Shown piece by piece: positions 185 to 16,567 of a DNA stretch of 16,567 nt (within the stretch, counting starts at the first letter, position 1; each line of letters opens with the position of its first letter). Source of the DNA: Naegleria gruberi (Eukaryota); assembly GCA_000004985.1 (NCBI GenBank), contig GG738974.1; one strand, written 5' to 3'. The position numbers and the translations under genes are program-made. The notes under the pieces were generated by a model that saw only the letters and a program-made list of their open reading frames with translations, was not told the origin of the DNA and made no database searches.

Positions 185-345
185 TTGTGTCGATAGGGTT
201 AATGCTAAACCTCGAGTGAAAACTTGTGGACCACGCGAGCTTGGTCGAACCTTCAACGATCCTCGCGTGAATCATACTACCGTAATTGTACGTAATTATC
301 ATGAAAATTAAATCTACAACCCTAACTGCAATAGCTAATATCAAT
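185..345 (+). repeat. Copy 1 of a ~150-bp dispersed repeat with an internal hairpin (stem cacgcgag, 22-nt loop, ctcgcgtg) and a B-box-like GGTTCGACC on the complementary strand
   Basis: The core at 211-275 is about 90% identical to the reverse complement of 6738-6800. Similarity decays towards 185 and 345. Confidence 0.6.
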
Positions 346-1165: not shown

Positions 1166-4100
1166 NNNNNNNNNNNNNNNNNNNNNNNNNNNNNNNNNNN
1201 NNNNNNNNNNNNNNNNNNNNNNNNNNNNNNNNNNNNNNNNNNNNNNNNNNNNNNNNNNNNNNNNNNNNNNNNNNNNNNNNNNNNNNNNNNNNNNNNNNNN
1301 NNNNNNNNNNNNNNNNNNNNNNNNNNNNNNNNNNNNNNNNNNNNNNNNNNNNNNNNNNNNNNNNNNNNNNNNNNNNNNNNNNNNNNNNNNNNNNNNNNNN
1401 NNNNNNNNNNNNNNNNNNNNNNNNNNNNNNNNNNNNNNNNNNNNNNNNNNNNNNNNNNNNNNNNNNNNNNNNNNNNNNNNNNNNNNNNNNNNNNNNNNNN
1501 NNNNNNNNNNNNNNNNNNNNNNNNNNNNNNNNNNNNNNNNNNNNNNNNNNNNNNNNNNNNNNNNNNNNNNNNNNNNNNNNNNNNNNNNNNNNNNNNNNNN
1601 NNNNNNNNNNNNNNNNNNNNNNNNNNNNNNNNNNNNNNNNNNNNNNNNNNNNNNNNNNNNNNNNNNNNNNNNNNNNNNNNNNNNNNNNNNNNNNNNNNNN
1701 NNNNNNNNNNNNNNNNNNNNNNNNNNNNNNNNNNNNNNNNNNNNNNNNNNNNNNNNNNNNNNNNNNNNNNNNNNNNNNNNNNNNNNNNNNNNNNNNNNNN
1801 NNNNNNNNNNNNNNNNNNNNNNNNNNNNNNNNNNNNNNNNNNNNNNNNNNNNNNNNNNNNNNNNNNNNNNNNNNNNNNNNNNNNNNNNNNNNNNNNNNNN
1901 NNNNNNNNNNNNNNNNNNNNNNNNNNNNNNNNNNNNNNNNNNNNNNNNNNNNNNNNNNNNNNNNNNNNNNNNNNNNNNNNNNNNNNNNNNNNNNNNNNNN
2001 NNNNNNNNNNNNNNNNNNNNNNNNNNNNNNNNNNNNNNNNNNNNNNNNNNNNNNNNNNNNNNNNNNNNNNNNNNNNNNNNNNNNNNNNNNNNNNNNNNNN
2101 NNNNNNNNNNNNNNNNNNNNNNNNNNNNNNNNNNNNNNNNNNNNNNNNNNNNNNNNNNNNNNNNNNNNNNNNNNNNNNNNNNNNNNNNNNNNNNNNNNNN
2201 NNNNNNNNNNNNNNNNNNNNNNNNNNNNNNNNNNNNNNNNNNNNNNNNNNNNNNNNNNNNNNNNNNNNNNNNNNNNNNNNNNNNNNNNNNNNNNNNNNNN
2301 NNNNNNNNNNNNNNNNNNNNNNNNNNNNNNNNNNNNNNNNNNNNNNNNNNNNNNNNNNNNNNNNNNNNNNNNNNNNNNNNNNNNNNNNNNNNNNNNNNNN
2401 NNNNNNNNNNNNNNNNNNNNNNNNNNNNNNNNNNNNNNNNNNNNNNNNNNNNNNNNNNNNNNNNNNNNNNNNNNNNNNNNNNNNNNNNNNNNNNNNNNNN
2501 NNNNNNNNNNNNNNNNNNNNNNNNNNNNNNNNNNNNNNNNNNNNNNNNNNNNNNNNNNNNNNNNNNNNNNNNNNNNNNNNNNNNNNNNNNNNNNNNNNNN
2601 NNNNNNNNNNNNNNNNNNNNNNNNNNNNNNNNNNNNNNNNNNNNNNNNNNNNNNNNNNNNNNNNNNNNNNNNNNNNNNNNNNNNNNNNNNNNNNNNNNNN
2701 NNNNNNNNNNNNNNNNNNNNNNNNNNNNNNNNNNNNNNNNNNNNNNNNNNNNNNNNNNNNNNNNNNNNNNNNNNNNNNNNNNNNNNNNNNNNNNNNNNNN
2801 NNNNNNNNNNNNNNNNNNNNNNNNNNNNNNNNNNNNNNNNNNNNNNNNNNNNNNNNNNNNNNNNNNNNNNNNNNNNNNNNNNNNNNNNNNNNNNNNNNNN
2901 NNNNNNNNNNNNNNNNNNNNNNNNNNNNNNNNNNNNNNNNNNNNNNNNNNNNNNNNNNNNNNNNNNNNNNNNNNNNNNNNNNNNNNNNNNNNNNNNNNNN
3001 NNNNNNNNNNNNNNNNNNNNNNNNNNNNNNNNNNNNNNNNNNNNNNNNNNNNNNNNNNNNNNNNNNNNNNNNNNNNNNNNNNNNNNNNNNNNNNNNNNNN
3101 NNNNNNNNNNNNNNNNNNNNNNNNNNNNNNNNNNNNNNNNNNNNNNNNNNNNNNNNNNNNNNNNNNNNNNNNNNNNNNNNNNNNNNNNNNNNNNNNNNNN
3201 NNNNNNNNNNNNNNNNNNNNNNNNNNNNNNNNNNNNNNNNNNNNNNNNNNNNNNNNNNNNNNNNNNNNNNNNNNNNNNNNNNNNNNNNNNNNNNNNNNNN
3301 NNNNNNNNNNNNNNNNNNNNNNNNNNNNNNNNNNNNNNNNNNNNNNNNNNNNNNNNNNNNNNNNNNNNNNNNNNNNNNNNNNNNNNNNNNNNNNNNNNNN
3401 NNNNNNNNNNNNNNNNNNNNNNNNNNNNNNNNNNNNNNNNNNNNNNNNNNNNNNNNNNNNNNNNNNNNNNNNNNNNNNNNNNNNNNNNNNNNNNNNNNNN
3501 NNNNNNNNNNNNNNNNNNNNNNNNNNNNNNNNNNNNNNNNNNNNNNNNNNNNNNNNNNNNNNNNNNNNNNNNNNNNNNNNNNNNNNNNNNNNNNNNNNNN
3601 NNNNNNNNNNNNNNNNNNNNNNNNNNNNNNNNNNNNNNNNNNNNNNNNNNNNNNNNNNNNNNNNNNNNNNNNNNNNNNNNNNNNNNNNNNNNNNNNNNNN
3701 NNNNNNNNNNNNNNNNNNNNNNNNNNNNNNNNNNNNNNNNNNNNNNNNNNNNNNNNNNNNNNNNNNNNNNNNNNNNNNNNNNNNNNNNNNNNNNNNNNNN
3801 NNNNNNNNNNNNNNNNNNNNNNNNNNNNNNNNNNNNNNNNNNNNNNNNNNNNNNNNNNNNNNNNNNNNNNNNNNNNNNNNNNNNNNNNNNNNNNNNNNNN
3901 NNNNNNNNNNNNNNNNNNNNNNNNNNNNNNNNNNNNNNNNNNNNNNNNNNNNNNNNNNNNNNNNNNNNNNNNNNNNNNNNNNNNNNNNNNNNNNNNNNNN
4001 NNNNNNNNNNNNNNNNNNNNNNNNNNNNNNNNNNNNNNNNNNNNNNNNNNNNNNNNNNNNNNNNNNNNNNNNNNNNNNNNNNNNNNNNNNNNNNNNNNNN

Positions 4101-5706
4101 NNNNNNNNNNNNNNNNNNNNNNNNNNNNNNNNNNNNNNNNNNNNNNNNNNNNNNNNNNNNNNNNNNNNNNNNNNNNNNNNNNNNNNNNNNNNNNNNNNNN
4201 NNNNNNNNNNNNNNNNNNNNNNNNNNNNNNNNNNNNNNNNNNNNNNNNNNNNNNNNNNNNNNNNNNNNNNNNNNNNNNNNNNNNNNNNNNNNNNNNNNNN
4301 NNNNNNNNNNNNNNNNNNNNNNNNNNNNNNNNNNNNNNNNNNNNNNNNNNNNNNNNNNNNNNNNNNNNNNNNNNNNNNNNNNNNNNNNNNNNNNNNNNNN
4401 NNNNNNNNNNNNNNNNNNNNNNNNNNNNNNNNNNNNNNNNNNNNNNNNNNNNNNNNNNNNNNNNNNNNNNNNNNNNNNNNNNNNNNNNNNNNNNNNNNNN
4501 NNNNNNNNNNNNNNNNNNNNNNNNNNNNNNNNNNNNNNNNNNNNNNNNNNNNNNNNNNNNNNNNNNNNNNNNNNNNNNNNNNNNNNNNNNNNNNNNNNNN
4601 NNNNNNNNNNNNNNNNNNNNNNNNNNNNNNNNNNNNNNNNNNNNNNNNNNNNNNNNNNNNNNNNNNNNNNNNNNNNNNNNNNNNNNNNNNNNNNNNNNNN
4701 NNNNNNNNNNNNNNNNNNNNNNNNNNNNNNNNNNNNNNNNNNNNNNNNNNNNNNNNNNNNNNNNNNNNNNNNNNNNNNNNNNNNNNNNNNNNNNNNNNNN
4801 NNNNNNNNNNNNNNNNNNNNNNNNNNNNNNNNNNNNNNNNNNNNNNNNNNNNNNNNNNNNNNNNNNNNNNNNNNNNNNNNNNNNNNNNNNNNNNNNNNNN
4901 NNNNNNNNNNNNNNNNNNNNNNNNNNNNNNNNNNNNNNNNNNNNNNNNNNNNNNNNNNNNNNNNNNNNNNNNNNNNNNNNNNNNNNNNNNNNNNNNNNNN
5001 NNNNNNNNNNNNNNNNNNNNNNNNNNNNNNNNNNNNNNNNNNNNNNNNNNNNNNNNNNNNNNNNNNNNNNNNNNNNNNNNNNNNNNNNNNNNNNNNNNNN
5101 NNNNNNNNNNNNNNNNNNNNNNNNNNNNNNNNNNNNNNNNNNNNNNNNNNNNNNNNNNNNNNNNNNNNNNNNNNNNNNNNNNNNNNNNNNNNNNNNNNNN
5201 NNNNNNNNNNNNNNNNNNNNNNNNNNNNNNNNNNNNNNNNNNNNNNNNNNNNNNNNNNNNNNNNNNNNNNNNNNNNNNNNNNNNNNNNNNNNNNNNNNNN
5301 NNNNNNNNNNNNNNNNNNNNNNNNNNNNNNNNNNNNNNNNNNNNNNNNNNNNNNNNNNNNNNNNNNNNNNNNNNNNNNNNNNNNNNNNNNNNNNNNNNNN
5401 NNNNNNNNNNNNNNNNNNNNNNNNNNNNNNNNNNNNNNNNNNNNNNNNNNNNNNNNNNNNNNNNNNNNNNNNNNNNNNNNNNNNNNNNNNNNNNNNNNNN
5501 NNNNNNNNNNNNNNNNNNNNNNNNNNNNNNNNNNNNNNNNNNNNNNNNNNNNNNNNNNNNNNNNNNNNNNNNNNNNNNNNNNNNNNNNNNNNNNNNNNNN
5601 NNNNNNNNNNNNNNNNNNNNNNNNNNNNNNNNNNNNNNNNNNNNNNNNNNNNNNNNNNNNNNNNNNNNNNNNNNNNNNNNNNNNNNNNNNNNNNNNNNNN
5701 NNNNNN
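1166..5706. other. Assembly gap (4541 N)
   Basis: N run in the sequence. Confidence 1.
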
Positions 5707-5719
5707 TCTGCACCCTTTT

Positions 5720-6517
5720 TCAACTTTCAGAGTTAATTTCTTGCAACTTTTCTATCTGCTCTTGAAGTAATTCCTTCACCTTCACAGGAACTGATTCAAG
5801 GTCATTTTTGCCAAATAGCTGTGTTTTAATGGTACGTACTGTTCTGTTAATAGCATCAATATTGCTAACTGCAATTCGCATATCAGGATCATTTGTTATT
5901 GACTTTCGTTTTCTAAATTTTCTTCCCGTGATACTAGGATCACTTTTTACTGCCTCAACCATTTTTTCCTTCATCTTCTTAGGTTGGGTACTTGTACGTA
6001 AATGACAATGTTCATGATCACCATTGAAACCAAAAATATAATTGGTAACTTTGTTGCCATCAACAACTTGTTCTTCTGACTTATAACAATATACCTTTGA
6101 GCTACAATCAATAATTTTAGACAACATATTATTACAAACATTGCAAACCCTATGCTTGTTTGTAAAGTGAGGAAATGATTTGGCAAATGGATCGTTTGTT
6201 TTTATGGTACTAAGGTTGGAGCTTACATTTTCAGAACAAACTTCACACTTTTTAAATCCTTGACAAGAACCCATACGATATTGATTGTATACAACACCAT
6301 TGATTGTTACTGAAAATGGTTTTAATTTTTGGAAACCATTAAAATGGGTTCCAAAATTCAAGTCTTCTCTTAAAGATGGGACCGTTCCTGATAGACAAGT
6401 TACATGATAAAACATCTTGTCCTCTGGCATTCTGTTAATAAACTTAATGTCTTCAACTGTTGTAACGTTGTCCTTATTTGCAAACAACCATTGCCCTGGG
6501 GAGAATCTTGGAGCCAT
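5720..6517 (-). CDS. Hypothetical 265-aa Cys/His-rich protein with a C2H2/BED-like zinc-finger motif (CEVCSENV...HFTNKH) and further CxxC and HxHCH clusters
   Basis: ATG-initiated ORF MAPRFSPGQW..., far longer than any antisense ORF over the same region. It shares the CxVCxENV motif with the neighbouring 6963-7730 gene. Confidence 0.5.
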   Translation of the reverse strand: MAPRFSPGQWLFANKDNVTTVEDIKFINRMPEDKMFYHVTCLSGTVPSLREDLNFGTHFNGFQKLKPFSVTINGVVYNQYRMGSCQGFKKCEVCSENVSSNLSTIKTNDPFAKSFPHFTNKHRVCNVCNNMLSKIIDCSSKVYCYKSEEQVVDGNKVTNYIFGFNGDHEHCHLRTSTQPKKMKEKMVEAVKSDPSITGRKFRKRKSITNDPDMRIAVSNIDAINRTVRTIKTQLFGKNDLESVPVKVKELLQEQIEKLQEINSES

Positions 6518-6700: not shown

Positions 6701-6830
6701 TAGTTGGATGGTTGAAATTAAGATAATTAAGGTCAAAAGATTCGCGCGAGGATTGTTGTGAGTTCGATCAAGCTCGCGTGGTTCACAAGTTTTCACTCGA
6801 GGTTTGACAGCTACCCGTGTCGATATCCTC
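6701..6830 (-). repeat. Copy 2 of the ~150-bp dispersed repeat, inverted relative to copy 1
   Basis: The reverse complement of 6738-6800 aligns to 211-275 at about 90% identity. It has the same cacgcgag...ctcgcgtg hairpin and a B-box-like GAGTTCGATC. Confidence 0.6.
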
Positions 6831-6962: not shown

Positions 6963-7730
6963 TTAATGATTGTTTGCAGGCCTGTATGCAATCTTTCCTC
7001 GCATTAGTGGACGTTTCTCCTCAACCAAATATTTGGAGAATGAAACACAATGACCTTGTTTTACATGATGTTCAAAATCATTGTCACTAATTACTTCATA
7101 AACATTTTCTTTACAAACAGCACAAAACGAAACTCCTTTCGAAACATGTCTAAAAGCAGTAGACTTCTTCAATGGACATTCATATTCCCAATCACAATTC
7201 TCAATAAATTGTCTGTCCTTATTCTTTCTAAATTTTGATCCTAAAGGTCCAGATTCTTCTTTAATTATTTTCGAAAGTGGTAATTCTTGTGGAAATTTGT
7301 TTTGTAAATGGATGACTCTCCTTCTCATGACATGCATCCAATTCTTGACATTTAAACTTGCCGAATAATTTGGAAAGTAATAAAGTACAAGTGGTTTCCA
7401 CAAAAGTGTCTGAGCAAGTGCAGTTTCGTTTTCTTTATACTGATCTTTGACCGATACAATCCTACTTTCAAGGTCAAGTTGCAACAATTCTTGTTTTCTC
7501 TTTGCAATGGCCTCCACTTTTTCAACAGTCAAATCAAAAATCATTTCCAATAAATATTCATCACTTCTCGCAAAAGAATTCAAATCTCCAATTGGTAAAT
7601 ATTGTGCAATTATTAAAATTAATTCCGTGCTGAGAGTTTCTTTAAAGATGTTGTGTTTTGTGGAGGGAAGAGAGGACAAGTCATCATCGGCTTCATTATT
7701 CGAAACTCGAGAGAAGATCTTTTTGAACAT
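6963..7730 (-). CDS. Hypothetical 255-aa protein with an F-box-like N-terminal segment (LSTELILIIAQYLPIGDLNSFARSDEYL) and a C-terminal C2H2/BED-like zinc finger (CAVCKENV x10 HHVKQGH)
   Basis: ATG-initiated ORF MFKKIFSRVS... It shares CxVCxENV and F.H....HxC spacing with the 5720-6517 protein. It is divergently oriented to the 8022 gene. Confidence 0.5.
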   Translation of the reverse strand: MFKKIFSRVSNNEADDDLSSLPSTKHNIFKETLSTELILIIAQYLPIGDLNSFARSDEYLLEMIFDLTVEKVEAIAKRKQELLQLDLESRIVSVKDQYKENETALAQTLLWKPLVLYYFPNYSASLNVKNWMHVMRRRVIHLQNKFPQELPLSKIIKEESGPLGSKFRKNKDRQFIENCDWEYECPLKKSTAFRHVSKGVSFCAVCKENVYEVISDNDFEHHVKQGHCVSFSKYLVEEKRPLMRGKIAYRPANNH

Positions 7731-7983
7731 TTTTTTAGTTGGAGATGTTTGTATGACTAGTGTTTGTCTTCAGCCATTTCATTGTTCACAACAAGTTCGC
7801 GAAAGAAAAAGGAAGAAGTTCATGAGCTCGATACAGTCTATGAAGGAAAGAATATAATTAAGGACAATGAAAGAGTTCATCACTACCTTGGTAAACATCT
7901 ATTGAAAAGACTCCTCTAAACTTACAGTTTGTTATCAGCACACAAGTATCATTCCCCTTGTTAGCTTATTTCAAATAATTAAA

Positions 7984-8021
7984 TTTTCAAAAAAATTAAG
8001 TCCACACCCAACATACTCAAA
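7984..8021 (+). promoter_or_regulatory. Conserved core promoter / 5' leader of paralog A (A-run followed by CCAACATACTCAAA and the ATG)
   Basis: About 80% identical to 15117-15153, which sits immediately upstream of the paralog B ATG. Conservation stops further upstream. Confidence 0.45.
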
Positions 8022-9509
8022 ATGTATTTGTGTGGTCGTTTGCCAGTTATTAGTGATTTCTTTGAGGCGTGTTTTGCTGAAGGAACAAAAACATCTTCCC
8101 AAGATAGTGGGTCCCAATTTTTCAACACTGAAGAAGGTNNNNNNNNNNNNNNNNNNNNNNNNNNNNNNNNNNNNNNNNNNNNNNNNNNTCTATTAGAAAG
8201 AATGGATTCCGTAAAAGTTTCTTTTGAGAATTTTGAGAGAACATCTGCTCTCATGGTTTTACTTGCATTTAACTATATTGATAAACCATCCCTTGATCAA
8301 GTTGAACAATGCATTGAACATTGTGACTTGATACTCTATAACTCAGAAAAGCTAGAACCGAGTGATCTTACTTGCATGGCCATGATTCTCTTTAATATCT
8401 ATAAGAAACAACCTTGTTTAGAATTGCTTGGAGATGCTTTCATACTTTCCAGCTTTGCAAATGTAGTTGATCCTCTGGGAGCTGAAACTCTCATGTTACA
8501 GATAGGAAATTCATTCATTGTAAAATTCAAACAGACATTTTCTCCACTGTTATCCCAACTTGTAGAGTTTCTTTCTAGAAGGATATCAACTTCAAATTTG
8601 GGGTCATTGTTGTTCTCTTCTGACACTTTTTGTGAAATACTGTATAGTAATATTACAAGAAACCTAAGACCAGATATTATTCCTTCATCTTCTTTCAAGT
8701 TTGGTGAAGATTTAAAATGTGTATCACGAAAAGAGTTCAAATCACAAAATTTCCTTGAGGATTTATTACGAATTGGAAACTCTAACGACTCAAACCAGCA
8801 GATGTTAAGTTTGTACAAAACCATCAACAGTACATTCCTTTCAATTGATTCTTTCCAAACCAAAGCTCACAAACTGGCATTAGTTTGTCAACTTGTTGTC
8901 AAGAATAAGTTAGAAATGGATAGAAATGAGTTGTTGAATGCTTTGTTAGTCTGTATTCATAATTTCCATCTTGTTTTTGAAACACAGTCCTTTTCACACA
9001 TTTCCCACTCTTCAGAATCGATGCCTGTTAGTGGAAGCAATACTCTCTGCTTCGATTTGTATTACTTTTCTGTTTTTCAATTTTACAACTTGTTGACAGA
9101 CCTCACTACTCTCAAATATCCTGCAGCTGAGAATTGTTTCTATTTCAAAAATATCAACAATAGATTCTTACAGTTTTTATGGAAGAAAGTTATTGAGAAC
9201 TTACAACTTCTTCAAAACAAGATTAGTGCAAGGCAGCAACCCAAAGATTTTAAAGATCACTATTTAACATCTATTCTGTCATCATCTTTTGAGGACACAC
9301 ATAAACACCAGTTGGAGGAGATTAAATCAAATATTGAACAGATTATGATCCTAGCAGAAGAAAATCAAAGGACAATTGATCTTCAAATAGAGAAGGCCAA
9401 GGACAGATTAAACCATTTGAATCAATCGAATCTTACTTCTCAAGAGATTCGAATCATTAAAAGCTTTGGTACAGAAATGCAATCTTTAACTGGGATTGAA
9501 TATGAGTAA
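8022..9509 (+). CDS. Paralog A of an unrecognised conserved protein family (495 aa as assembled; interrupted by the 50-N gap at 8139-8188)
   Basis: ATG-to-TAA ORF. About 88% aa identity to the 15154+ ORF over ~380 aligned residues, with synonymous differences present. Confidence 0.7.
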   Translation: MYLCGRLPVISDFFEACFAEGTKTSSQDSGSQFFNTEEGXXXXXXXXXXXXXXXXXLLERMDSVKVSFENFERTSALMVLLAFNYIDKPSLDQVEQCIEHCDLILYNSEKLEPSDLTCMAMILFNIYKKQPCLELLGDAFILSSFANVVDPLGAETLMLQIGNSFIVKFKQTFSPLLSQLVEFLSRRISTSNLGSLLFSSDTFCEILYSNITRNLRPDIIPSSSFKFGEDLKCVSRKEFKSQNFLEDLLRIGNSNDSNQQMLSLYKTINSTFLSIDSFQTKAHKLALVCQLVVKNKLEMDRNELLNALLVCIHNFHLVFETQSFSHISHSSESMPVSGSNTLCFDLYYFSVFQFYNLLTDLTTLKYPAAENCFYFKNINNRFLQFLWKKVIENLQLLQNKISARQQPKDFKDHYLTSILSSSFEDTHKHQLEEIKSNIEQIMILAEENQRTIDLQIEKAKDRLNHLNQSNLTSQEIRIIKSFGTEMQSLTGIEYE

Positions 9510-9842
9510 CTGGATTTCTTGAAATAGTTCTATTAACAGTTTTTTCCCTGATACAAAACAAGAAATTAATACAATCGTGTAATATTTCATTGTGAATCCC
9601 CTAGGTTTATTTTATATTCTTCATCAAAGCAATTTTTCAACATTCATTTTACTGTTGTTCATGTAAGGAATTAAGGAAAAAATGCCCCCACGCATCAAGG
9701 AATCAATCTTCACGCCAAAATATTTCACAAGTTAGGAATGATTATTACACATAAATGGGTGTTCATTCAATTCAAGGGATTTCAATAGATGTATGGAATC
9801 AGTCAGGTAACTTTCTAATTTGATACTTTACATTTGGGGAAG

Positions 9843-11747
9843 NNNNNNNNNNNNNNNNNNNNNNNNNNNNNNNNNNNNNNNNNNNNNNNNNNNNNNNNNN
9901 NNNNNNNNNNNNNNNNNNNNNNNNNNNNNNNNNNNNNNNNNNNNNNNNNNNNNNNNNNNNNNNNNNNNNNNNNNNNNNNNNNNNNNNNNNNNNNNNNNNN
10001 NNNNNNNNNNNNNNNNNNNNNNNNNNNNNNNNNNNNNNNNNNNNNNNNNNNNNNNNNNNNNNNNNNNNNNNNNNNNNNNNNNNNNNNNNNNNNNNNNNNN
10101 NNNNNNNNNNNNNNNNNNNNNNNNNNNNNNNNNNNNNNNNNNNNNNNNNNNNNNNNNNNNNNNNNNNNNNNNNNNNNNNNNNNNNNNNNNNNNNNNNNNN
10201 NNNNNNNNNNNNNNNNNNNNNNNNNNNNNNNNNNNNNNNNNNNNNNNNNNNNNNNNNNNNNNNNNNNNNNNNNNNNNNNNNNNNNNNNNNNNNNNNNNNN
10301 NNNNNNNNNNNNNNNNNNNNNNNNNNNNNNNNNNNNNNNNNNNNNNNNNNNNNNNNNNNNNNNNNNNNNNNNNNNNNNNNNNNNNNNNNNNNNNNNNNNN
10401 NNNNNNNNNNNNNNNNNNNNNNNNNNNNNNNNNNNNNNNNNNNNNNNNNNNNNNNNNNNNNNNNNNNNNNNNNNNNNNNNNNNNNNNNNNNNNNNNNNNN
10501 NNNNNNNNNNNNNNNNNNNNNNNNNNNNNNNNNNNNNNNNNNNNNNNNNNNNNNNNNNNNNNNNNNNNNNNNNNNNNNNNNNNNNNNNNNNNNNNNNNNN
10601 NNNNNNNNNNNNNNNNNNNNNNNNNNNNNNNNNNNNNNNNNNNNNNNNNNNNNNNNNNNNNNNNNNNNNNNNNNNNNNNNNNNNNNNNNNNNNNNNNNNN
10701 NNNNNNNNNNNNNNNNNNNNNNNNNNNNNNNNNNNNNNNNNNNNNNNNNNNNNNNNNNNNNNNNNNNNNNNNNNNNNNNNNNNNNNNNNNNNNNNNNNNN
10801 NNNNNNNNNNNNNNNNNNNNNNNNNNNNNNNNNNNNNNNNNNNNNNNNNNNNNNNNNNNNNNNNNNNNNNNNNNNNNNNNNNNNNNNNNNNNNNNNNNNN
10901 NNNNNNNNNNNNNNNNNNNNNNNNNNNNNNNNNNNNNNNNNNNNNNNNNNNNNNNNNNNNNNNNNNNNNNNNNNNNNNNNNNNNNNNNNNNNNNNNNNNN
11001 NNNNNNNNNNNNNNNNNNNNNNNNNNNNNNNNNNNNNNNNNNNNNNNNNNNNNNNNNNNNNNNNNNNNNNNNNNNNNNNNNNNNNNNNNNNNNNNNNNNN
11101 NNNNNNNNNNNNNNNNNNNNNNNNNNNNNNNNNNNNNNNNNNNNNNNNNNNNNNNNNNNNNNNNNNNNNNNNNNNNNNNNNNNNNNNNNNNNNNNNNNNN
11201 NNNNNNNNNNNNNNNNNNNNNNNNNNNNNNNNNNNNNNNNNNNNNNNNNNNNNNNNNNNNNNNNNNNNNNNNNNNNNNNNNNNNNNNNNNNNNNNNNNNN
11301 NNNNNNNNNNNNNNNNNNNNNNNNNNNNNNNNNNNNNNNNNNNNNNNNNNNNNNNNNNNNNNNNNNNNNNNNNNNNNNNNNNNNNNNNNNNNNNNNNNNN
11401 NNNNNNNNNNNNNNNNNNNNNNNNNNNNNNNNNNNNNNNNNNNNNNNNNNNNNNNNNNNNNNNNNNNNNNNNNNNNNNNNNNNNNNNNNNNNNNNNNNNN
11501 NNNNNNNNNNNNNNNNNNNNNNNNNNNNNNNNNNNNNNNNNNNNNNNNNNNNNNNNNNNNNNNNNNNNNNNNNNNNNNNNNNNNNNNNNNNNNNNNNNNN
11601 NNNNNNNNNNNNNNNNNNNNNNNNNNNNNNNNNNNNNNNNNNNNNNNNNNNNNNNNNNNNNNNNNNNNNNNNNNNNNNNNNNNNNNNNNNNNNNNNNNNN
11701 NNNNNNNNNNNNNNNNNNNNNNNNNNNNNNNNNNNNNNNNNNNNNNN
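9843..11747. other. Assembly gap (1905 N), probably hiding the 5' part of the retroelement (gag / ITR)
   Basis: N run in the sequence. Confidence 1.
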
Positions 11748-11769
11748 TATGCTGAGTCCAATGTAATAG

Positions 11770-12945
11770 AGATGGAAACAGTCAACAATATTGAACCCAA
11801 TAAACATTGTACCCAAGAAGGGTTCGGATCAATTTCGCTTTATTCTAGACCTAAGGAAGGTCAATTTAGGAATAAAGGACAGTTCCTTCAAGATGGACAA
11901 CATTCAAAGATGTTTGAAATTTGTTCAGAAGGGAATGTGGGCAACAAAGATAGACCTGAAGAAGGGTTACTTCCACGTTCCAATCAGGGAGAAACATCGC
12001 AATCTTCTTGGATTCCGGTACAAGGACAAGATTTATCAGTTCAAATGCCTACCGTTTGGGCTAAGTCAAGCTCCCAGAAATTTCACAAAGATTATGAAAG
12101 AGTTGGTGACCAAGTGGAGAAAGCAGGGTATTCTAGTATTTATTTACATAGACGATATTTTGATTCTAAACAACAGCAAAGAAACTACCCAACTGCTCAC
12201 AGACATAGTCATGAAGGATCTGGAGACATTGGGATGGATAATCCAGAAAGAGAAAAGCGTATTAGCACCGTGTCAACACATAGAGTTTCTCGGTCTGGAA
12301 CTGGATCTCGTACTTGGCCTTGTGAAAATCCCAGTCAACAAACAATCAACAGCCTTAGAAATGATTCAAAAATTCTTATCAGCAAACCAACGGAACAGGT
12401 TTGTAGCATGCAAGAAAGTAGCACAATTCCTCGGAAGGATGGAATTTCTAACTCTTTCAAACCACTACTTTGCTCCCTTTCTTGCTCGTCTTCGGAAGGA
12501 TATGGTGAAAGTAGTAAACGACAAATCTTGGCACGCATCAATGAGAATATTCAGAGGTGCAGCAAAGGATCTAAATATTTTGAAAGATCTGATTCAGGAA
12601 AACAGTGGAATTCCCTTCGAACTGAATTCAATGAACCCAATTCGAGTGAATTCAGATGCCTGCCCAACAGGCTATGGAATTCACGCAGAGTCAACCATTA
12701 CAATTGGAAGATTCACTTCCTCAGAACACATCAATGTGAAAGAGTTAAAAACACTCCTCATTTTCTTCACACAAGCAGATCTGTTAAACCTTTATGGTCC
12801 TGGACAAGCATTCGAAATCAGAGGCGACAATGTTACGGCAATTTCCTATATAAGGAGAGGTTACGGAGTCATAGAAGAACTCTTGTTTCTTAAAAGAAAA
12901 CCAACAATAAATAAACTAATGGATATTGTCCCGAGAAAGGAGTAG
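11770..12945 (+). CDS. Reverse transcriptase-RNase H polyprotein segment (apparently intact, ~390 codons) of a DIRS-like retroelement
   Basis: A continuous frame runs from just after the in-frame TAA/TAG at 11764-11769 to the stop at 12945. YIDD lies at 12145-12156. There is an RNase H DAS..G.G motif. The track starts this ORF at a TTG (11791). Confidence 0.8.
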   Translation, partial: RWKQSTILNPINIVPKKGSDQFRFILDLRKVNLGIKDSSFKMDNIQRCLKFVQKGMWATKIDLKKGYFHVPIREKHRNLLGFRYKDKIYQFKCLPFGLSQAPRNFTKIMKELVTKWRKQGILVFIYIDDILILNNSKETTQLLTDIVMKDLETLGWIIQKEKSVLAPCQHIEFLGLELDLVLGLVKIPVNKQSTALEMIQKFLSANQRNRFVACKKVAQFLGRMEFLTLSNHYFAPFLARLRKDMVKVVNDKSWHASMRIFRGAAKDLNILKDLIQENSGIPFELNSMNPIRVNSDACPTGYGIHAESTITIGRFTSSEHINVKELKTLLIFFTQADLLNLYGPGQAFEIRGDNVTAISYIRRGYGVIEELLFLKRKPTINKLMDIVPRKE

Positions 12946-13400
12946 TAGACAAGTGGCGAGCGGCAAGAGCTTCTTGTCTTTGATAAGGTTGTAAAGATTT
13001 CACATCCTTATGTCTAGTCCCTATAATAATATCCTGAGTAGGAATTCCCTTGATAATACTCTCAGTAGTTGCACCAATACGTAAACTGTGACCAGAAACA
13101 GTGATTTCTGAATCAACAAAGATCATAGCATTCTTGATAAGTTGAGAAACATCGTCAGTGTTGAAGAAAATATTGTCTTGCAATGAAAACAATGGTGAAT
13201 CTGCTGTTTTGAAATGCTGTAGTGTCCTTGTAATCAAAAAGCAATTTCACTGGATACACTGAAGGATTTTCAAGATGCTTGTCAAAAGTAATCGGCTTTT
13301 CTAGTAGAAATCTGTTTTGTGACCACTGAGATCTAATTTGATGTTACCATTTCTAAGCTTAGTAACATAACCCCACTTGAGAGTAAGAGGAATCTCGGTA
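12946..13400 (-). pseudogene. Tyrosine recombinase (phage-integrase/DIRS type) C-terminal catalytic domain, frameshifted
   Basis: The minus ORF 12890-13237 contains GHSLRIGATTESIIKGIPTQDIIIGTRHKDVKSLQPY (the HxxR...Y box II with catalytic Tyr). Upstream, in another frame, are LTLKWGYV (box I-like) and SGHKTDFY (KT lysine region), followed by a stop. Confidence 0.6.
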
Positions 13401-14061
13401 TTCATTTATTTAGACGATATCTTAGTGGTAAATCATTCAAAAGATCAGTTGATCTTAGACAGAGATATAGTTCTAAAGGATAGAAGAGTTTGGATTTCTC
13501 ATTCAAAAAGACAAATGTTGTTTAAATCCAACTCAATTATTAGAATACCTAGGAGTTTTGTTAGACTTTCATCAAGGTTTGGTAAAAATTCCAGAAGACA
13601 AAAAGATTACAACCTTAGAATTCATAGAGGAGCTACTCAATGCTTCCCAGAAACCGCTTTATGTTCCATGCAAGAGAGTTGCCAAGTTCCTAGGAAATTT
13701 GGAATTTCTAACAATTGCCAACAAGTACCTTTCACCATTCATGTGTCGTCTTCGAAAGAACATGATTTCAGCAGTATCAGGAAGAAGTTGGCATGCATCG
13801 ATGAAAATTCACAAAGGTGCATTCAAGGATTTATTGATTCTAAGGGAGTTAATTCAAAAGAACAATGGTAATTCCAGAATGGAGCTCCTCGATTTGGTGG
13901 CCTCTACTCTTAAAGCTATTAAAGAAGAGAAAAAGTATCACAAGAAGGATGCTTTTAATCAAACCAATATCCGAATTATGGAACAAATTCGAAGGAACGA
14001 CGTTCATAATTGCTCATCTGGATGGAAACTTATACTTCAAACCAGAGATTTAGGATGTTAG
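13380..14061 (+). pseudogene. 5'-truncated, frameshifted second RT(-RH) copy, about 55% aa identity to the first
   Basis: GISVFIYLDDILVVNHSKDQ (YLDD at 13407-13418), then ...DIVLKDRRVWISHSKRQML. A frame switch near 13540-13560 continues as LVKIPEDKKITTLEFIEELL...SWHASMKIHKGAFKDL, collinear with RT1. The RNase H motifs are degenerate. Confidence 0.7.
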
Positions 14062-14305
14062 TTTCGATTAAGGAAGAAACCTTCAAACTTTACACTAGAA
14101 ACTATAATGGTTTATTACTGCATTCAATATTTCAATGGATGACCCTTATGCTATTGAGTATTATGCAGCTTATCTTACAATTCAAGGTCAAACATCTCGT
14201 GTTGAAGCCTTGAGACCATCCCTTCAATTTTGGGCCATGTTACTCAATTTCAATGGGAAGTAGTGTAAATGGAGTTAGAAAGTCATTTTGAAAACAGGTT
14301 TATTT

Positions 14306-15037
14306 TTACTTTCCCAGTAATTCATGCACACATCCCCAAAAAGTTGCTGATTCTTCCATGGAAAATTTCAAGTATTGCATACTAAGTTGTTGTTTTTCGA
14401 TTTCAGAAATGGTGAGCACTTGCTTTTCAATCTTTTTTTGAATGGATTTATAATGGAATCCAATTGTTTTTTCTTTAACCATAACAGAAGCTCCAGATTG
14501 TACTTTGGCATCAGCATCACGTTGTTGAACAATTCTGTTGTTGGTGTTATTTACACTAGAAATAATTTGATTTCTCTCATCGGAAGTAATTTCCCTTACA
14601 TAACAAATACACTTTGTTGTTCCGTTCTTGTCTTGAAATTCCAAGGTAAACTGCTCACTATTATTTGTTCGGCATATTTTTCTATTATATGTATTCACAC
14701 TTCCACTGGGCTCAGTGTTGGTTGGAATTTTATAAACCTCACTGCAGCCGCCAAATGAAGTCTCAAATATGTAATAATATTCGCCACTAACCACATAAAA
14801 CATTGCATGGTTGATAGAAGTGTTGTTGTTTGCCGGTTTGATGGATGGACAAACAAAGCCTGATGGAAAAAACTTCTTCAAATACAAACAAAAGCCTAAA
14901 CAATTACATCCAATAGAGGTGGGCTCGTATCCATCCACATATAAATTAGTGTTAAGTGTGTTATTGTATGGAAATTTCACCAAGAGTTCCTTATGTTTTT
15001 GATTAAAACGGTCCCTAGCGATATCCTCTGGATCCAT
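14306..15037 (-). CDS. Hypothetical 243-aa Cys- and Asn-rich protein
   Basis: The track ORF (14306-15052) begins at a TTG. The first ATG is at 15035-15037 (MDPEDIARDRF...). This ORF is longer than the antisense ORF. It is divergent from paralog B, with 116 bp between the two ATGs. Confidence 0.45.
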   Translation of the reverse strand: MDPEDIARDRFNQKHKELLVKFPYNNTLNTNLYVDGYEPTSIGCNCLGFCLYLKKFFPSGFVCPSIKPANNNTSINHAMFYVVSGEYYYIFETSFGGCSEVYKIPTNTEPSGSVNTYNRKICRTNNSEQFTLEFQDKNGTTKCICYVREITSDERNQIISSVNNTNNRIVQQRDADAKVQSGASVMVKEKTIGFHYKSIQKKIEKQVLTISEIEKQQLSMQYLKFSMEESATFWGCVHELLGK

Positions 15038-15116
15038 TGCTGTCCGGAACAATAATATTATTTACAGATTTTTTTTGTATTTTTTGCCTTCAATAAATTC
15101 AATATTTCATGTTGTA

Positions 15117-15153
15117 AAATTCAAAAAAAAATTACATCCATCCAACATTCAAA
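15117..15153 (+). promoter_or_regulatory. Conserved core promoter / 5' leader of paralog B
   Basis: aaaattcaaaaaaaaattacatccatccaacattcaaa immediately before the ATG, matching 7984-8021. Confidence 0.45.
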
Positions 15154-16567
15154 ATGGAATTATATGATAGTTCGCCAGATATTAATCCCTTTGATGCCTA
15201 CTTTGCGGTAACAAAAACACCTGCTGAAGATACTGGGGCCCAATTTTTGCAGCACATGAAGAAGGTTTATAGTGATGGATTTGTTAATGGATTTGTTAAT
15301 GGCTACAACTACAGGCAATCATCCGAACCAAAGGATCACAACATATTCCATAGCCACACTAACTATGTTTTGAATCAATCTCTTTCTGTGGTTATCAAGG
15401 CCCAGAGGATACCACAAGCTGGTATTATCACCAAGATATTTTCTCAAGAGCTCCAATCATTTTTCCCGGTTCTGTCCAGTCTTGCCAAATTGATTGAATC
15501 AAACTCACTTGGCAATTATGTAGCATCTTCTGAAGAGCAGGCAATTCTATGCTCACTTGCTGAATGCCTACTCTCAACTGAAATATCAAAACGGGATGCA
15601 ACAGCCATAAAACCAACAAACCTATTAGAAAGAATGAATGCTGTAAAAGTTTCTTTTGAGAATTTTGAGAGAAAATCTGCTCTTATGGTTTTACTTGCAT
15701 TTAACTATATTGATAAACCATCTCTTGATCAAGTTGAACAATGCATTGAACATTGTGACTTGATGCTCTATAACTCAGACAAGCTAGAACCAAGTGATCT
15801 TACTTGCATGGCCATGATCCTCTTTAATATTTATAAGAAACAACCTTGTTTAGAATTGCTTGGAGATGCTTTCATACTTTCCAGCTTTGCAAATGTGGTT
15901 GATCCTGTAGGTGCGGAGACTCTTATGGTGCAGATAGGAAATGCATTCATTGTAAACTTCAAACAGACATTTTCTCCACTGTTATCCCAGGTTGCAGAGT
16001 TTCTTTCTCGTAGAATATCTACTTCAAATTTGGGCTCACTGTTGTTCTCGTCTGACACCTTTTGTGAAATACTGTACAGTAATATTATCAGAAACTTAAG
16101 ACCAGAAATTATTCCATCATCTACTTACAAGTTTGGTGAAGATTTAAAATGTCTGTCACGAAAAGAGTTCAAATCGCAATATTTCCTTGAAGATTTATTA
16201 CGAATTGAGAGCTCTAAAGACTCAAACGAGCAGATGTTGAGCTTGTATAAAACAATCAACAATACGTACCTTTCAAATGATTCATCCCAAACCAAAGCTC
16301 ACAAACTGGCATTAGTTTGTCAACTGGTTGTCAAAAATAAGTTAGATATGGATAGAAATGAGTTTTTGAATGCTCTGTTGGTCTGTATTCATAATTTCCA
16401 TCTAGTTTTTGAAACAGAGCTGATTTCACACGTTTCTCGCTCTTCAGAATCGATGTCTGTTAGTGGAAGCAACACTGTCTGCTTCGATCTGTATTACTTT
16501 TCTGTTTTTCAATTACACGAGTTATTGACTGACCACTCTAATCTCAAATATCCTGCAGCTGAGAATG
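15154..16567 (+). CDS. Paralog B of the same unrecognised family, 3'-truncated by the window end
   Basis: ATG at 15154; the ORF is open to the end of the window. It contains ~110 residues (YSDGFVNGFVNG...KPTN) that in paralog A fall inside the 50-N gap. Confidence 0.7.
   Translation, partial: MELYDSSPDINPFDAYFAVTKTPAEDTGAQFLQHMKKVYSDGFVNGFVNGYNYRQSSEPKDHNIFHSHTNYVLNQSLSVVIKAQRIPQAGIITKIFSQELQSFFPVLSSLAKLIESNSLGNYVASSEEQAILCSLAECLLSTEISKRDATAIKPTNLLERMNAVKVSFENFERKSALMVLLAFNYIDKPSLDQVEQCIEHCDLMLYNSDKLEPSDLTCMAMILFNIYKKQPCLELLGDAFILSSFANVVDPVGAETLMVQIGNAFIVNFKQTFSPLLSQVAEFLSRRISTSNLGSLLFSSDTFCEILYSNIIRNLRPEIIPSSTYKFGEDLKCLSRKEFKSQYFLEDLLRIESSKDSNEQMLSLYKTINNTYLSNDSSQTKAHKLALVCQLVVKNKLDMDRNEFLNALLVCIHNFHLVFETELISHVSRSSESMSVSGSNTVCFDLYYFSVFQLHELLTDHSNLKYPAAEN
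15277..15300 (+). repeat. Perfect 12-bp tandem duplication (ggatttgttaat x2) inside paralog B, encoding GFVN-GFVN
   Basis: Read directly from the sequence. Confidence 0.8.

What the first reader, a model, noticed from the sequence alone, without database searches (positions are those of the whole stretch)
8022..16567. Recently duplicated gene pair of an unrecognised family with a conserved promoter and a fast-evolving N-terminus
Genes at 8022-9509 and 15154+ share about 88% aa identity over their core (e.g. LLERM..VKVSFENFER...KAHKLALVCQLVVKNKL.MDRNE.LNALLVCIHNFHLVFET). Nucleotide identity reaches ~94% in places, with synonymous changes present, so both copies appear to be under purifying selection. 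The first ~30 residues are only about 40% identical. The ~37 bp immediately 5' of each ATG are conserved, but sequence further upstream is not, suggesting a compact core promoter. The two copies are separated by the retroelement cluster, so the duplication may have been mediated by, or later invaded by, these elements. I could not assign the family to any domain.
Basis: seen in the sequence. Interest (0 to 1): 0.55.

Follow-up and report, generated by a model that had tools for sequence, protein, structure and literature searches.

The report
Naegleria paralogue pair, unknown helical family
Two diverged copies of a gene found only in Naegleria and its relatives sit on a small, gap-ridden Naegleria gruberi scaffold; this is an ordinary lineage-specific duplication kept by purifying selection, and the "conserved promoter" and the 495-aa gene model do not hold up.

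Summary
The window is a complete 16,567-bp scaffold of Naegleria gruberi. The duplication is real. The cores (8189-9134 and 15621-16566) align over 946 nt without indels, at 90.5% nt and 87.3% aa identity, with dN/dS 0.22 and dS 0.28.

- Copy A contains a 50-N assembly gap (8139-8188) that hides about 327 nt, so the 495-aa ORF is an artefact. The true product is about 588 aa.
- Copy A has two 1-nt deletions 10-16 nt from the gap edge. These are either read-end errors or real frameshifts.
- Copy A and its upstream neighbour each have a near-identical twin on a 747-kb scaffold, so this is probably an unmerged haplotype.

The N-terminus does diverge faster (48-59% aa identity), but with dN/dS 0.3-0.4. 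That indicates relaxed constraint on a low-confidence, probably disordered tail, not positive selection.

The upstream similarity spans 55 nt at 73-78% identity. That is what neutral decay predicts at dS of about 0.28. It ends abruptly, and part of it is an A-tract also found upstream of unrelated genes. It looks like the edge of the duplicated segment rather than a selected promoter.

The family has no Pfam or PDB relative and occurs only in Naegleria and Willaertia. The model is an all-alpha repeat protein with a long C-terminal helix. Function is unknown.

The parts
7967..8021 (+). Upstream homology block of copy A (55 nt, ends at the ATG). It contains the tract CAAAAAAATTA and CCAACATACTCAAA.
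   Evidence: Local alignment to 15103-15153 has 40/55 columns identical; 3/1000 shuffles reach the score; no similarity further upstream. An in-frame TAA lies at 7980.
8022..8138 (+). Copy A, 5' coding part (N-terminal tail). Single-base deletions after 8122 and after 8128, relative to B and L001.
   Evidence: L001 reads continuously from the equivalent ATG into MKKVYSDGF.
8139..8188 (.). Assembly gap (50 N) inside copy A, hiding about 327 nt (109 codons).
   Evidence: N run found. L001 has 327 nt between GAAGAAGGT and TCTATTAG. P0002 has 118 aa before LLERM.
8189..9509 (+). Copy A, core plus C-terminal long helix and stop codon. The annotated model NAEGRDRAFT_76383 (435 aa) starts at the M of LLERM.
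   Evidence: 98.6% aa identity to P0002.
15103..15153 (+). Upstream homology block of copy B (51 nt). It makes up half of the 101-nt intergenic spacer shared with the divergent gene P0019.
15154..16567 (+). Copy B (NAEGRDRAFT_60071, partial). 471 codons are open, then the gene is truncated by the scaffold end.
6963..7730 (-). Upstream neighbour of copy A (NAEGRDRAFT_54654, 255 aa). Its twin P0007 on the 747-kb scaffold differs by one residue.
14306..15052 (-). Divergent neighbour of copy B. The annotated protein P0019 (243 aa) starts at 15037. It is an orphan found only on this scaffold.
11791..12945 (+). Reverse-transcriptase ORF of a retroelement lying between the two copies.
   Evidence: Pfam RVT_1, E = 9.1e-25, 88 bits.
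12890..13237 (-). Weak tyrosine-recombinase-like fragment.
   Evidence: Pfam Phage_integrase, E = 0.021, 15 bits, below the 27.1 cutoff. No PDB sequence match.
13377..14061 (+). Second, frame-shifted retroelement fragment, read as two overlapping ORFs. It carries a YLDD motif.
   Evidence: ORF translations. Read from the sequence; no domain hit was obtained.

Best explanation
The window is one small, gap-ridden scaffold of Naegleria gruberi. It carries two paralogues, A-type and B-type, of a protein family that occurs only in Naegleria and Willaertia (Heterolobosea).

Shown:
- The full-length product is about 580-590 aa.
- The model has a low-confidence N-terminal region of roughly 90-120 residues, an all-alpha helical-repeat body, and a roughly 50-residue C-terminal helix.
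- Both copies have been kept under purifying selection (dN/dS about 0.2).

Inferred:
- The duplication happened within the N. gruberi lineage (dS about 0.3).
- The N-terminal tail diverges faster because it is weakly constrained. There is no sign that it is positively selected.
- The 55-nt upstream similarity is residual homology at the 5' edge of the duplicated segment, decayed at the neutral rate.
- Copy A and its left-hand neighbour are most likely an unmerged alternative haplotype of the NAEGRDRAFT_58109/49242 locus on the 747-kb scaffold. Failing that, they are a very recent segmental duplicate.
- The two 1-nt deletions next to the gap are most likely low-quality read ends.
- By fold class alone, the protein most probably acts as a non-enzymatic helical scaffold or adaptor that may oligomerise through its C-terminal helix. 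This last step is the weakest.
For: Organism and scaffold: P0001 100% identical, N. gruberi, longest contig 16567; accessions.

Duplication and selection: (946 nt without indels; dN 0.060, dS 0.277, dN/dS 0.22, P = 1e-11).

Gradient of divergence, L001 against B:
- codons 1-34: aa 59%, dN 0.228, dS 0.788, dN/dS 0.29
- codons 35-156: aa 73%, dN/dS 0.43
- core: aa 87.5%, dN/dS 0.23

The N-terminus also diverges faster between close relatives: 6/99 nt against 15/1287 nt for A versus L001.

Gap content and continuous frame.

Third copy and synteny. A, P0002 and P0005 are mutually 4-5 differences apart over 315 aa. Naegleria is described as mainly a heterozygous diploid (PMC9928731).

Upstream block.

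Family range: exhaustive HMMER over 1.84 billion representatives gave only 10 hits. Every hit that carries a name is from Naegleria gruberi, N. lovaniensis, N. fowleri or Willaertia magna; the rest are unnamed environmental contigs.

Structure: AF2 with 15 sequences gave pLDDT 70 and pTM 0.74. Residues 1-89 score below 50, the body scores 80-90, and there is a helix at 475-527. Only generic helical-repeat matches were found.
Against: - The frame across the gap in copy A is unknowable. If the two deletions are real, copy A is 5'-truncated or a pseudogene.
- dS also rises towards the 5' end (0.79, then 0.36, then 0.26), and the first 300 nt of the core are less diverged than the rest (6% against 11%, P = 0.017). 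Gene conversion of the core could therefore produce part of the 'fast N-terminus' pattern.
- Low pLDDT at the N-terminus may only reflect the shallow alignment there.
- Whether A is a haplotype or a paralogue of P0002 could not be tested, because the 747-kb scaffold DNA was not retrievable.
- The proposed function rests on fold class only. Invariant polar residues (R246, R247, N252, H373) could equally mark a catalytic or ligand-binding site.
Confidence: 0.7

Rival explanations
1. Copy A on this scaffold is a decaying or 5'-truncated pseudogene. The two single-base deletions before the gap are real, so the 8022 ATG is out of frame with the body and the conserved internal ATG (MKKVY) is destroyed.
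For: Both deletions are specific to A; B and L001 have the bases. The JGI model for A starts only after the gap (P0004). dN/dS between A and L001 is 0.5, with 10 non-synonymous and 5 synonymous changes.
Against: The deletions lie 10 and 16 nt from a gap edge, where Sanger contig ends are least reliable (general knowledge). The remaining 439 codons are open and 98.6% identical to an intact gene. The counts behind dN/dS 0.5 are too small to distinguish it from 0.2.
Confidence: 0.2
2. The upstream block is a selectively maintained compact core promoter or leader shared by the two paralogues.
For: The block abuts the ATG in both copies and is statistically real. B's whole intergenic spacer is only 101 nt, so its promoter must lie there. 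An A-tract followed by ATT also lies upstream of the Willaertia orthologue.
Against: Identity of 73-78% with two indels is no higher than at synonymous sites or in the adjacent coding DNA. The A-tract occurs upstream of unrelated genes in the window, namely P0019, P0006 and ORF 5720-6517. An abrupt end to similarity is what a duplication breakpoint produces.
Confidence: 0.2
3. The gradient of divergence (5' end diverged, core similar) is produced by gene conversion homogenising the core between A-type and B-type copies, not by different selective constraint on the N-terminus.
For: dS falls from 0.79 (codons 1-34) to 0.36 and then 0.26. Within the core, the first 300 nt show 6% divergence against 11% for the rest, P = 0.017, with dS 0.116 in the first 189 nt.
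Against: There are very few synonymous sites in the N-terminal segment (20.5). dN also rises 4-fold. The N-terminus is also the most variable part among the near-identical A-type sequences, where conversion with B is not at issue. No clear conversion tract with a run of identical sites was seen.
Confidence: 0.15
4. The two copies are an assembly artefact: alleles or mis-joined contigs rather than two loci.
For: The scaffold is four contigs joined across three N runs. The A side has a near-identical twin elsewhere in the assembly.
Against: A and B differ at 9.5% of nucleotides and 12.7% of residues, with different flanking genes (P0006 against P0019) and unrelated sequence beyond -55. A-type sequences differ from each other by only 1-2%. 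B lies within a single gap-free contig, 11748-16567.
Confidence: 0.05

Closest known systems
NAEGRDRAFT_58109 (D2VG26, 'predicted protein', N. gruberi 747-kb scaffold) and relatives: Willaertia magna ABK040_003836/_002857/_006898, N. lovaniensis C9374_010084/_001551, an unnamed N. fowleri protein (CAG4715378), N. gruberi NAEGRDRAFT_45720
   Same: Significant full-length sequence similarity (E from 1e-263 down to 3e-8). Shared motifs: DSF..A.FAN..DP.G.E.LM..IG, EFV.RRIST(C/S)N.G, RAHKLA and IHNFH. Copy A is 98.6% identical to 58109.
   Different: All are uncharacterised 'hypothetical' proteins, so membership gives no function. The distant paralogues lack the stretch between the RRISTCN and RAHKLA motifs and end in an acidic DPYE..DD tail, which the A and B types do not have.
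TPR-like / ARM-HEAT alpha-solenoid repeat proteins (for example the Sac3 TPR-like region, beta-catenin, designed helical repeats)
Lineage-specific tandem or segmental gene duplicates retained under purifying selection (general phenomenon)
   Same: Two collinear copies about 7 kb apart on the same strand, with dN/dS 0.22, faster change in a weakly constrained terminal region, and homology that ends shortly upstream of the start codon.
   Different: Nothing distinguishes this case from the general pattern, apart from the retroelement fragments between the copies and the probable extra haplotype copy.

Membership tests
Heterolobosean uncharacterised family (NAEGRDRAFT_58109-like) | Significant sequence similarity over most of the length to other members | tested here: met
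   B scores E = 1e-263 to its own model and 2e-218 to P0002. The profile retrieves Willaertia and other Naegleria proteins at E from 1e-52 to 3e-8.
Heterolobosean uncharacterised family (NAEGRDRAFT_58109-like) | Conserved motifs RRIST(C/S)N.G, (K/R)AHKLA and IHNFH, plus invariant G222, R247 and N252 | tested here: met
   Both window copies carry all of them (alignments).
TPR / ARM / HEAT repeat families | Match to a repeat sequence profile (Pfam) | tested here: not met
   No Pfam family matched P0002 (E up to 1), copy A or copy B (E up to 0.1). The 15 family members gave only scattered sub-threshold hits.
TPR / ARM / HEAT repeat families | Specific structural superposition over most of the chain | tested here: inconclusive
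Pseudogene (for copy A) | Frame-disrupting mutation or premature stop | tested here: inconclusive
   Two A-specific 1-nt deletions lie 10-16 nt from the gap edge. The frame across the 50-N gap is unknowable. The remaining 439 codons are open.
DIRS-like tyrosine-recombinase retroelement (the spacer between the copies) | Reverse transcriptase domain | tested here: met
   RVT_1, E = 9.1e-25 for 11791-12945.
DIRS-like tyrosine-recombinase retroelement (the spacer between the copies) | Tyrosine recombinase domain in the same element | tested here: inconclusive
   Phage_integrase, E = 0.021, 15 bits against a cutoff of 27.1, and on the opposite strand. No PDB match.
Conserved cis-regulatory element (upstream block) | Conservation above the neutral level of the same pair | tested here: not met
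   40/55 columns identical (78% of ungapped columns) against about 77% expected from dS 0.277. Adjacent coding DNA is 74.5% identical.

The most novel reading that the evidence does not exclude
The family could be a heterolobosean innovation with a specific biochemical role. The invariant Arg-Arg, Asn and His residues in an all-alpha body might form a catalytic or ligand-binding site. The N-terminal tail, which is the most variable segment even among 98-99% identical haplotypes, might be under diversifying selection, for example in a conflict with a parasite or mobile element. The retroelement-rich, haplotype-variable neighbourhood would fit this reading.
Probability: 0.07. Interest if true: 0.5.

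Novelty: new member of a known kind. Interest (0 to 1): 0.2.

Why it matters
It matters little beyond curation.
- Gene model NAEGRDRAFT_76383 (435 aa) is truncated by an assembly gap, and NAEGRDRAFT_60071 is truncated by the scaffold end.
- This scaffold is probably an unmerged haplotype of a locus on a 747-kb scaffold.
- A protein family without any Pfam model is confined to Naegleria and Willaertia. A family restricted to the genus that includes N. fowleri could be of modest interest as a lineage marker, but nothing here points to an unusual mechanism.

Tried and rejected
- Pfam on both copies and on 15 family members: no family.
- PDB sequence profile search: only a chance P450 hit, E = 0.078.
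- AF2 with 4 sequences was unusable at pLDDT 45. With 15 sequences it was usable at pLDDT 70.
- I tried to fetch the DNA of the 747-kb scaffold locus and of B's own record by exact protein look-up. Neither is on record, so the haplotype-versus-paralogue question and the presence of a B-like copy on the main scaffold stay open.
- JGI metagenome scans for more loci, by protein patterns and by a degenerate DNA pattern, found nothing. Alignment A2 was too diverse to seed a scan.
- Literature search for the locus tags found no paper.
- Neighbour searches: P0019 is an orphan on this scaffold only, and ORF 5720-6517 has no homologue.
- Rejected: an upstream coding extension, because in-frame stops lie 39-42 nt upstream.
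- Rejected: A and B as alleles, because they have different flanks and 9.5% nt divergence.
- Rejected: a viral origin, because there is no BFVD match.
Full report
**What the window is.** A protein search with copy B returned a 100%-identical partial protein of Naegleria gruberi (NAEGRDRAFT_60071). Its longest contig is 16,567 bp, the exact length of the window. The window is therefore a whole small scaffold of the N. gruberi assembly. It has three N runs: 1166-5706, 8139-8188 and 9843-11747. That makes it four contigs joined by scaffolding gaps. GC content is about 33-36% outside the gaps.

**Checking the observation.** The two loci are clearly homologous.
- From 8189 to 9134 and from 15621 to 16566 they align over 946 nt without a single indel. 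Identity is 90.5% nt and 87.3% aa over 315 codons. The first 300 nt are 94% identical.
- 39 codons differ synonymously and 40 non-synonymously. Differences by codon position are 24/14/51.
- Nei-Gojobori estimates are dN 0.060, dS 0.277 and dN/dS 0.22. Equal rates are rejected at P = 1e-11.

The ORF 8022-9509 reads straight through the 50-N gap at 8139-8188. Three independent sequences show what belongs there:
- copy B;
- the N. gruberi protein P0002 (NAEGRDRAFT_58109, 555 aa), which has 118 residues before the LLERM motif that follows the gap;
- an environmental contig, L001 (2077 nt, ENA ERZ929261). It matches window 7897-9709 at about 98-99% identity and has 327 nt between the two gap edges.

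The true A-type product is therefore about 588 aa, and the 495-aa ORF is an artefact. That N50 plus one base keeps the frame is coincidence.

Copy A also lacks one base after 8122 and one after 8128, relative to both B and L001. These deletions shift the frame and turn the conserved internal ATG (MKKVY) into CTG. They lie 10 and 16 nt from the contig end, where consensus quality is normally worst (general knowledge). I rate them as probable errors, but they cannot be excluded as real frameshifts.

In L001 the ATG equivalent to 8022 is in frame with the whole 581-aa product. The Willaertia orthologue also begins with a related MFD..ED..H.K..VY..GFVNG stretch. The start at 8022 / 15154 is therefore well supported. 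Copy B is cut by the scaffold end after 471 codons.

**It is not just a pair.** Cluster look-ups show the following.
- The annotated model of copy A (NAEGRDRAFT_76383, 435 aa, starting after the gap) shares a 90% cluster with P0002 on a 747-kb scaffold.
- A's upstream neighbour (6966-7730, minus strand, NAEGRDRAFT_54654) has a twin differing by one residue (NAEGRDRAFT_49242) on the same 747-kb scaffold.
- The UniProt accessions of the two main-scaffold genes are consecutive (D2VG26, D2VG27).
- A is 98.6% identical to P0002 over 439 aa.
- A, P0002 and the environmental P0005 are mutually 4-5 differences apart over 315 aa.

The left half of this scaffold is thus a syntenic, near-identical copy of a main-scaffold locus. 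Naegleria is described as mainly a heterozygous diploid (PMC9928731), so an unmerged alternative haplotype is the simplest reading. A very recent segmental duplication is the alternative. I could not retrieve the main-scaffold DNA, so this is inference. Copy B and its divergent neighbour P0019 are found only on this scaffold.

**The N-terminus.** I used L001 as a complete A-type sequence against B.

| Segment | aa identity | dN | dS | dN/dS |
|---|---|---|---|---|
| codons 1-34 | 59% | 0.228 | 0.788 | 0.29 |
| codons 35-156 | 73% | 0.154 | 0.358 | 0.43 |
| core | 87.5% | 0.059 | 0.258 | 0.23 |

- A against B over the first 31-33 residues is 48% identical.
- Between the near-identical A and L001, the first 99 nt carry 6 differences against 15 in 1287 nt of the core.
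- The N-terminal third does evolve faster, but dN/dS stays well below 1.
- The structure model gives pLDDT below 50 for residues 1-89 of P0002. The best reading is therefore relaxed constraint on a probably disordered tail.
- Two caveats apply. dS also rises towards the 5' end, and the first 300 nt of the core are less diverged than the rest (P = 0.017), so gene conversion of the core is a live rival. The low pLDDT may also reflect the thin alignment at the N-terminus.

**The 'conserved promoter'.**
- Similarity upstream of the ATG spans 7967-8021 against 15103-15153. It has 40 of 55 columns identical (78% of ungapped columns) and two 2-nt indels. Only 3 of 1000 dinucleotide shuffles reach its score, and nothing aligns further upstream.
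- With dS 0.277 the neutral expectation is about 77% identity, and the adjacent coding DNA is 74.5% identical. There is no excess conservation.
- The most conspicuous shared element, CAAAAAAA(A)ATTA at about -30, also appears upstream of the unrelated genes P0019, P0006 and ORF 5720-6517, and upstream of the Willaertia orthologue. It is a generic leader feature.
- The abrupt loss of similarity at -55 is what the edge of a duplicated segment looks like.
- The block is not coding. In-frame TAA codons lie 42 and 39 nt upstream, with no ATG between.
- B's promoter must nonetheless lie within its 101-nt spacer, so a functional role for the block is not excluded. It is only unsupported by conservation.

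**What the protein is.**
- No Pfam family matches either copy or any of 15 relatives. A PDB profile search gives only a chance hit.
- An exhaustive HMMER search of 1.84 billion representative proteins with a family profile found just 10 hits. Every hit that carries a name is from N. gruberi, N. lovaniensis, N. fowleri or Willaertia magna; the rest are unnamed environmental contigs. A more distant N. gruberi paralogue is NAEGRDRAFT_45720.
- Conserved motifs are DSF..A.FAN..DP.G.E.LM..IG, EFV.RRIST(C/S)N.G, RAHKLA and IHNFH. G222, R247 and N252 are invariant.
- AlphaFold2 with 15 sequences gives pLDDT 70 and pTM 0.74. The body (residues ~120-465) scores mostly 75-93, the fold is all-alpha, and there is a 53-residue helix at 475-527.
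- I therefore file it as a heterolobosean-specific alpha-helical repeat protein. By fold class it is most probably a scaffold or adaptor that may oligomerise through its C-terminal helix. This functional statement is inference with low confidence.

**The retroelements.** Between the copies lie a gap and three element fragments:
- a reverse-transcriptase ORF at 11791-12945 (RVT_1, E = 9e-25);
- a weak tyrosine-recombinase-like fragment on the other strand (E = 0.021, below threshold);
- a second, frame-shifted element fragment with a YLDD motif at 13377-14061.

They are fragmentary. Nothing links them mechanistically to the duplication. The 3' boundary of the duplicated segment is beyond the scaffold end.

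**Verdict.** This is an ordinary lineage-specific paralogue pair, and both genes are already annotated as hypothetical proteins. The duplication and the purifying selection are real. The gene model, the 'recent' label and the promoter claim need correction. The useful outputs are the corrected gene structure, the probable haplotig status of the scaffold, and the delimitation of a Naegleria/Willaertia-only family with no known domain.

Noticed in passing
window 196-287 and 6725-6816: A 92-nt inverted repeat, 82% complementary. It brackets the 4.5-kb N gap and the minus-strand ORFs 782-1165... and 5720-6517. These could be terminal inverted repeats of a mobile element about 6.6 kb long.
   Followed up: no
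window 11748-12945 (+): Two long open frames overlap on the same strand. The RT frame is 11791-12945. A second frame stays open from the gap edge at 11748 to 12893. This is unusual for DNA of about 38% GC.
   Followed up: no
window 7985-7997, 15119-15133, 15060-15075 (minus-strand leader of P0019); L002 9946-9960: An A-tract, CAAAAAAA(A), lies about 25-35 nt upstream of the ATG of copy A, copy B and the unrelated gene P0019. It lies about 49 nt upstream in the Willaertia orthologue, and directly before the ATG of P0006 and ORF 5720-6517. It may be a general promoter or leader feature of these amoebae.
   Followed up: partly
L001 (ENA metagenome ERZ929261 contig, 2077 nt) against window 7897-9709: An environmental contig about 98-99% identical to the copy A locus. 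Relative to A it has an in-frame 30-nt deletion (window ~8636-8665) and a 3-nt insertion near 9418. A close N. gruberi-complex strain is therefore present in that sample.
   Followed up: partly
window 7731-7790 (minus-strand leader of NAEGRDRAFT_54654): The main-scaffold twin P0007 has an 18-aa N-terminal extension (MKWLKTNTGHHKHLQLKK). In the window the same stretch reads MKWLKTNTSHTNISN and then a stop. This implies a small indel difference between the two loci, or an over-extended gene model.
   Followed up: partly
window 5720-6517 (-): A 265-aa ORF with paired CxxC motifs. It is not annotated, has no homologue in the 5.8-billion-protein search and has no Pfam domain. It lies just inside the inverted repeat noted above.
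   Followed up: partly
proteins P0010, P0014, P0015, P0017 (family members outside the window): The distant paralogues end in an acidic tail (DPYE... followed by D/E runs) and lack the segment between the RRISTCN and RAHKLA motifs. The A and B types end in GIEYE instead. This suggests two subfamilies.
   Followed up: no
window 14306-15052 (-): P0019 (243 aa) is transcribed divergently from copy B across a 101-nt spacer. It is an orphan with no homologue other than itself.
   Followed up: partly
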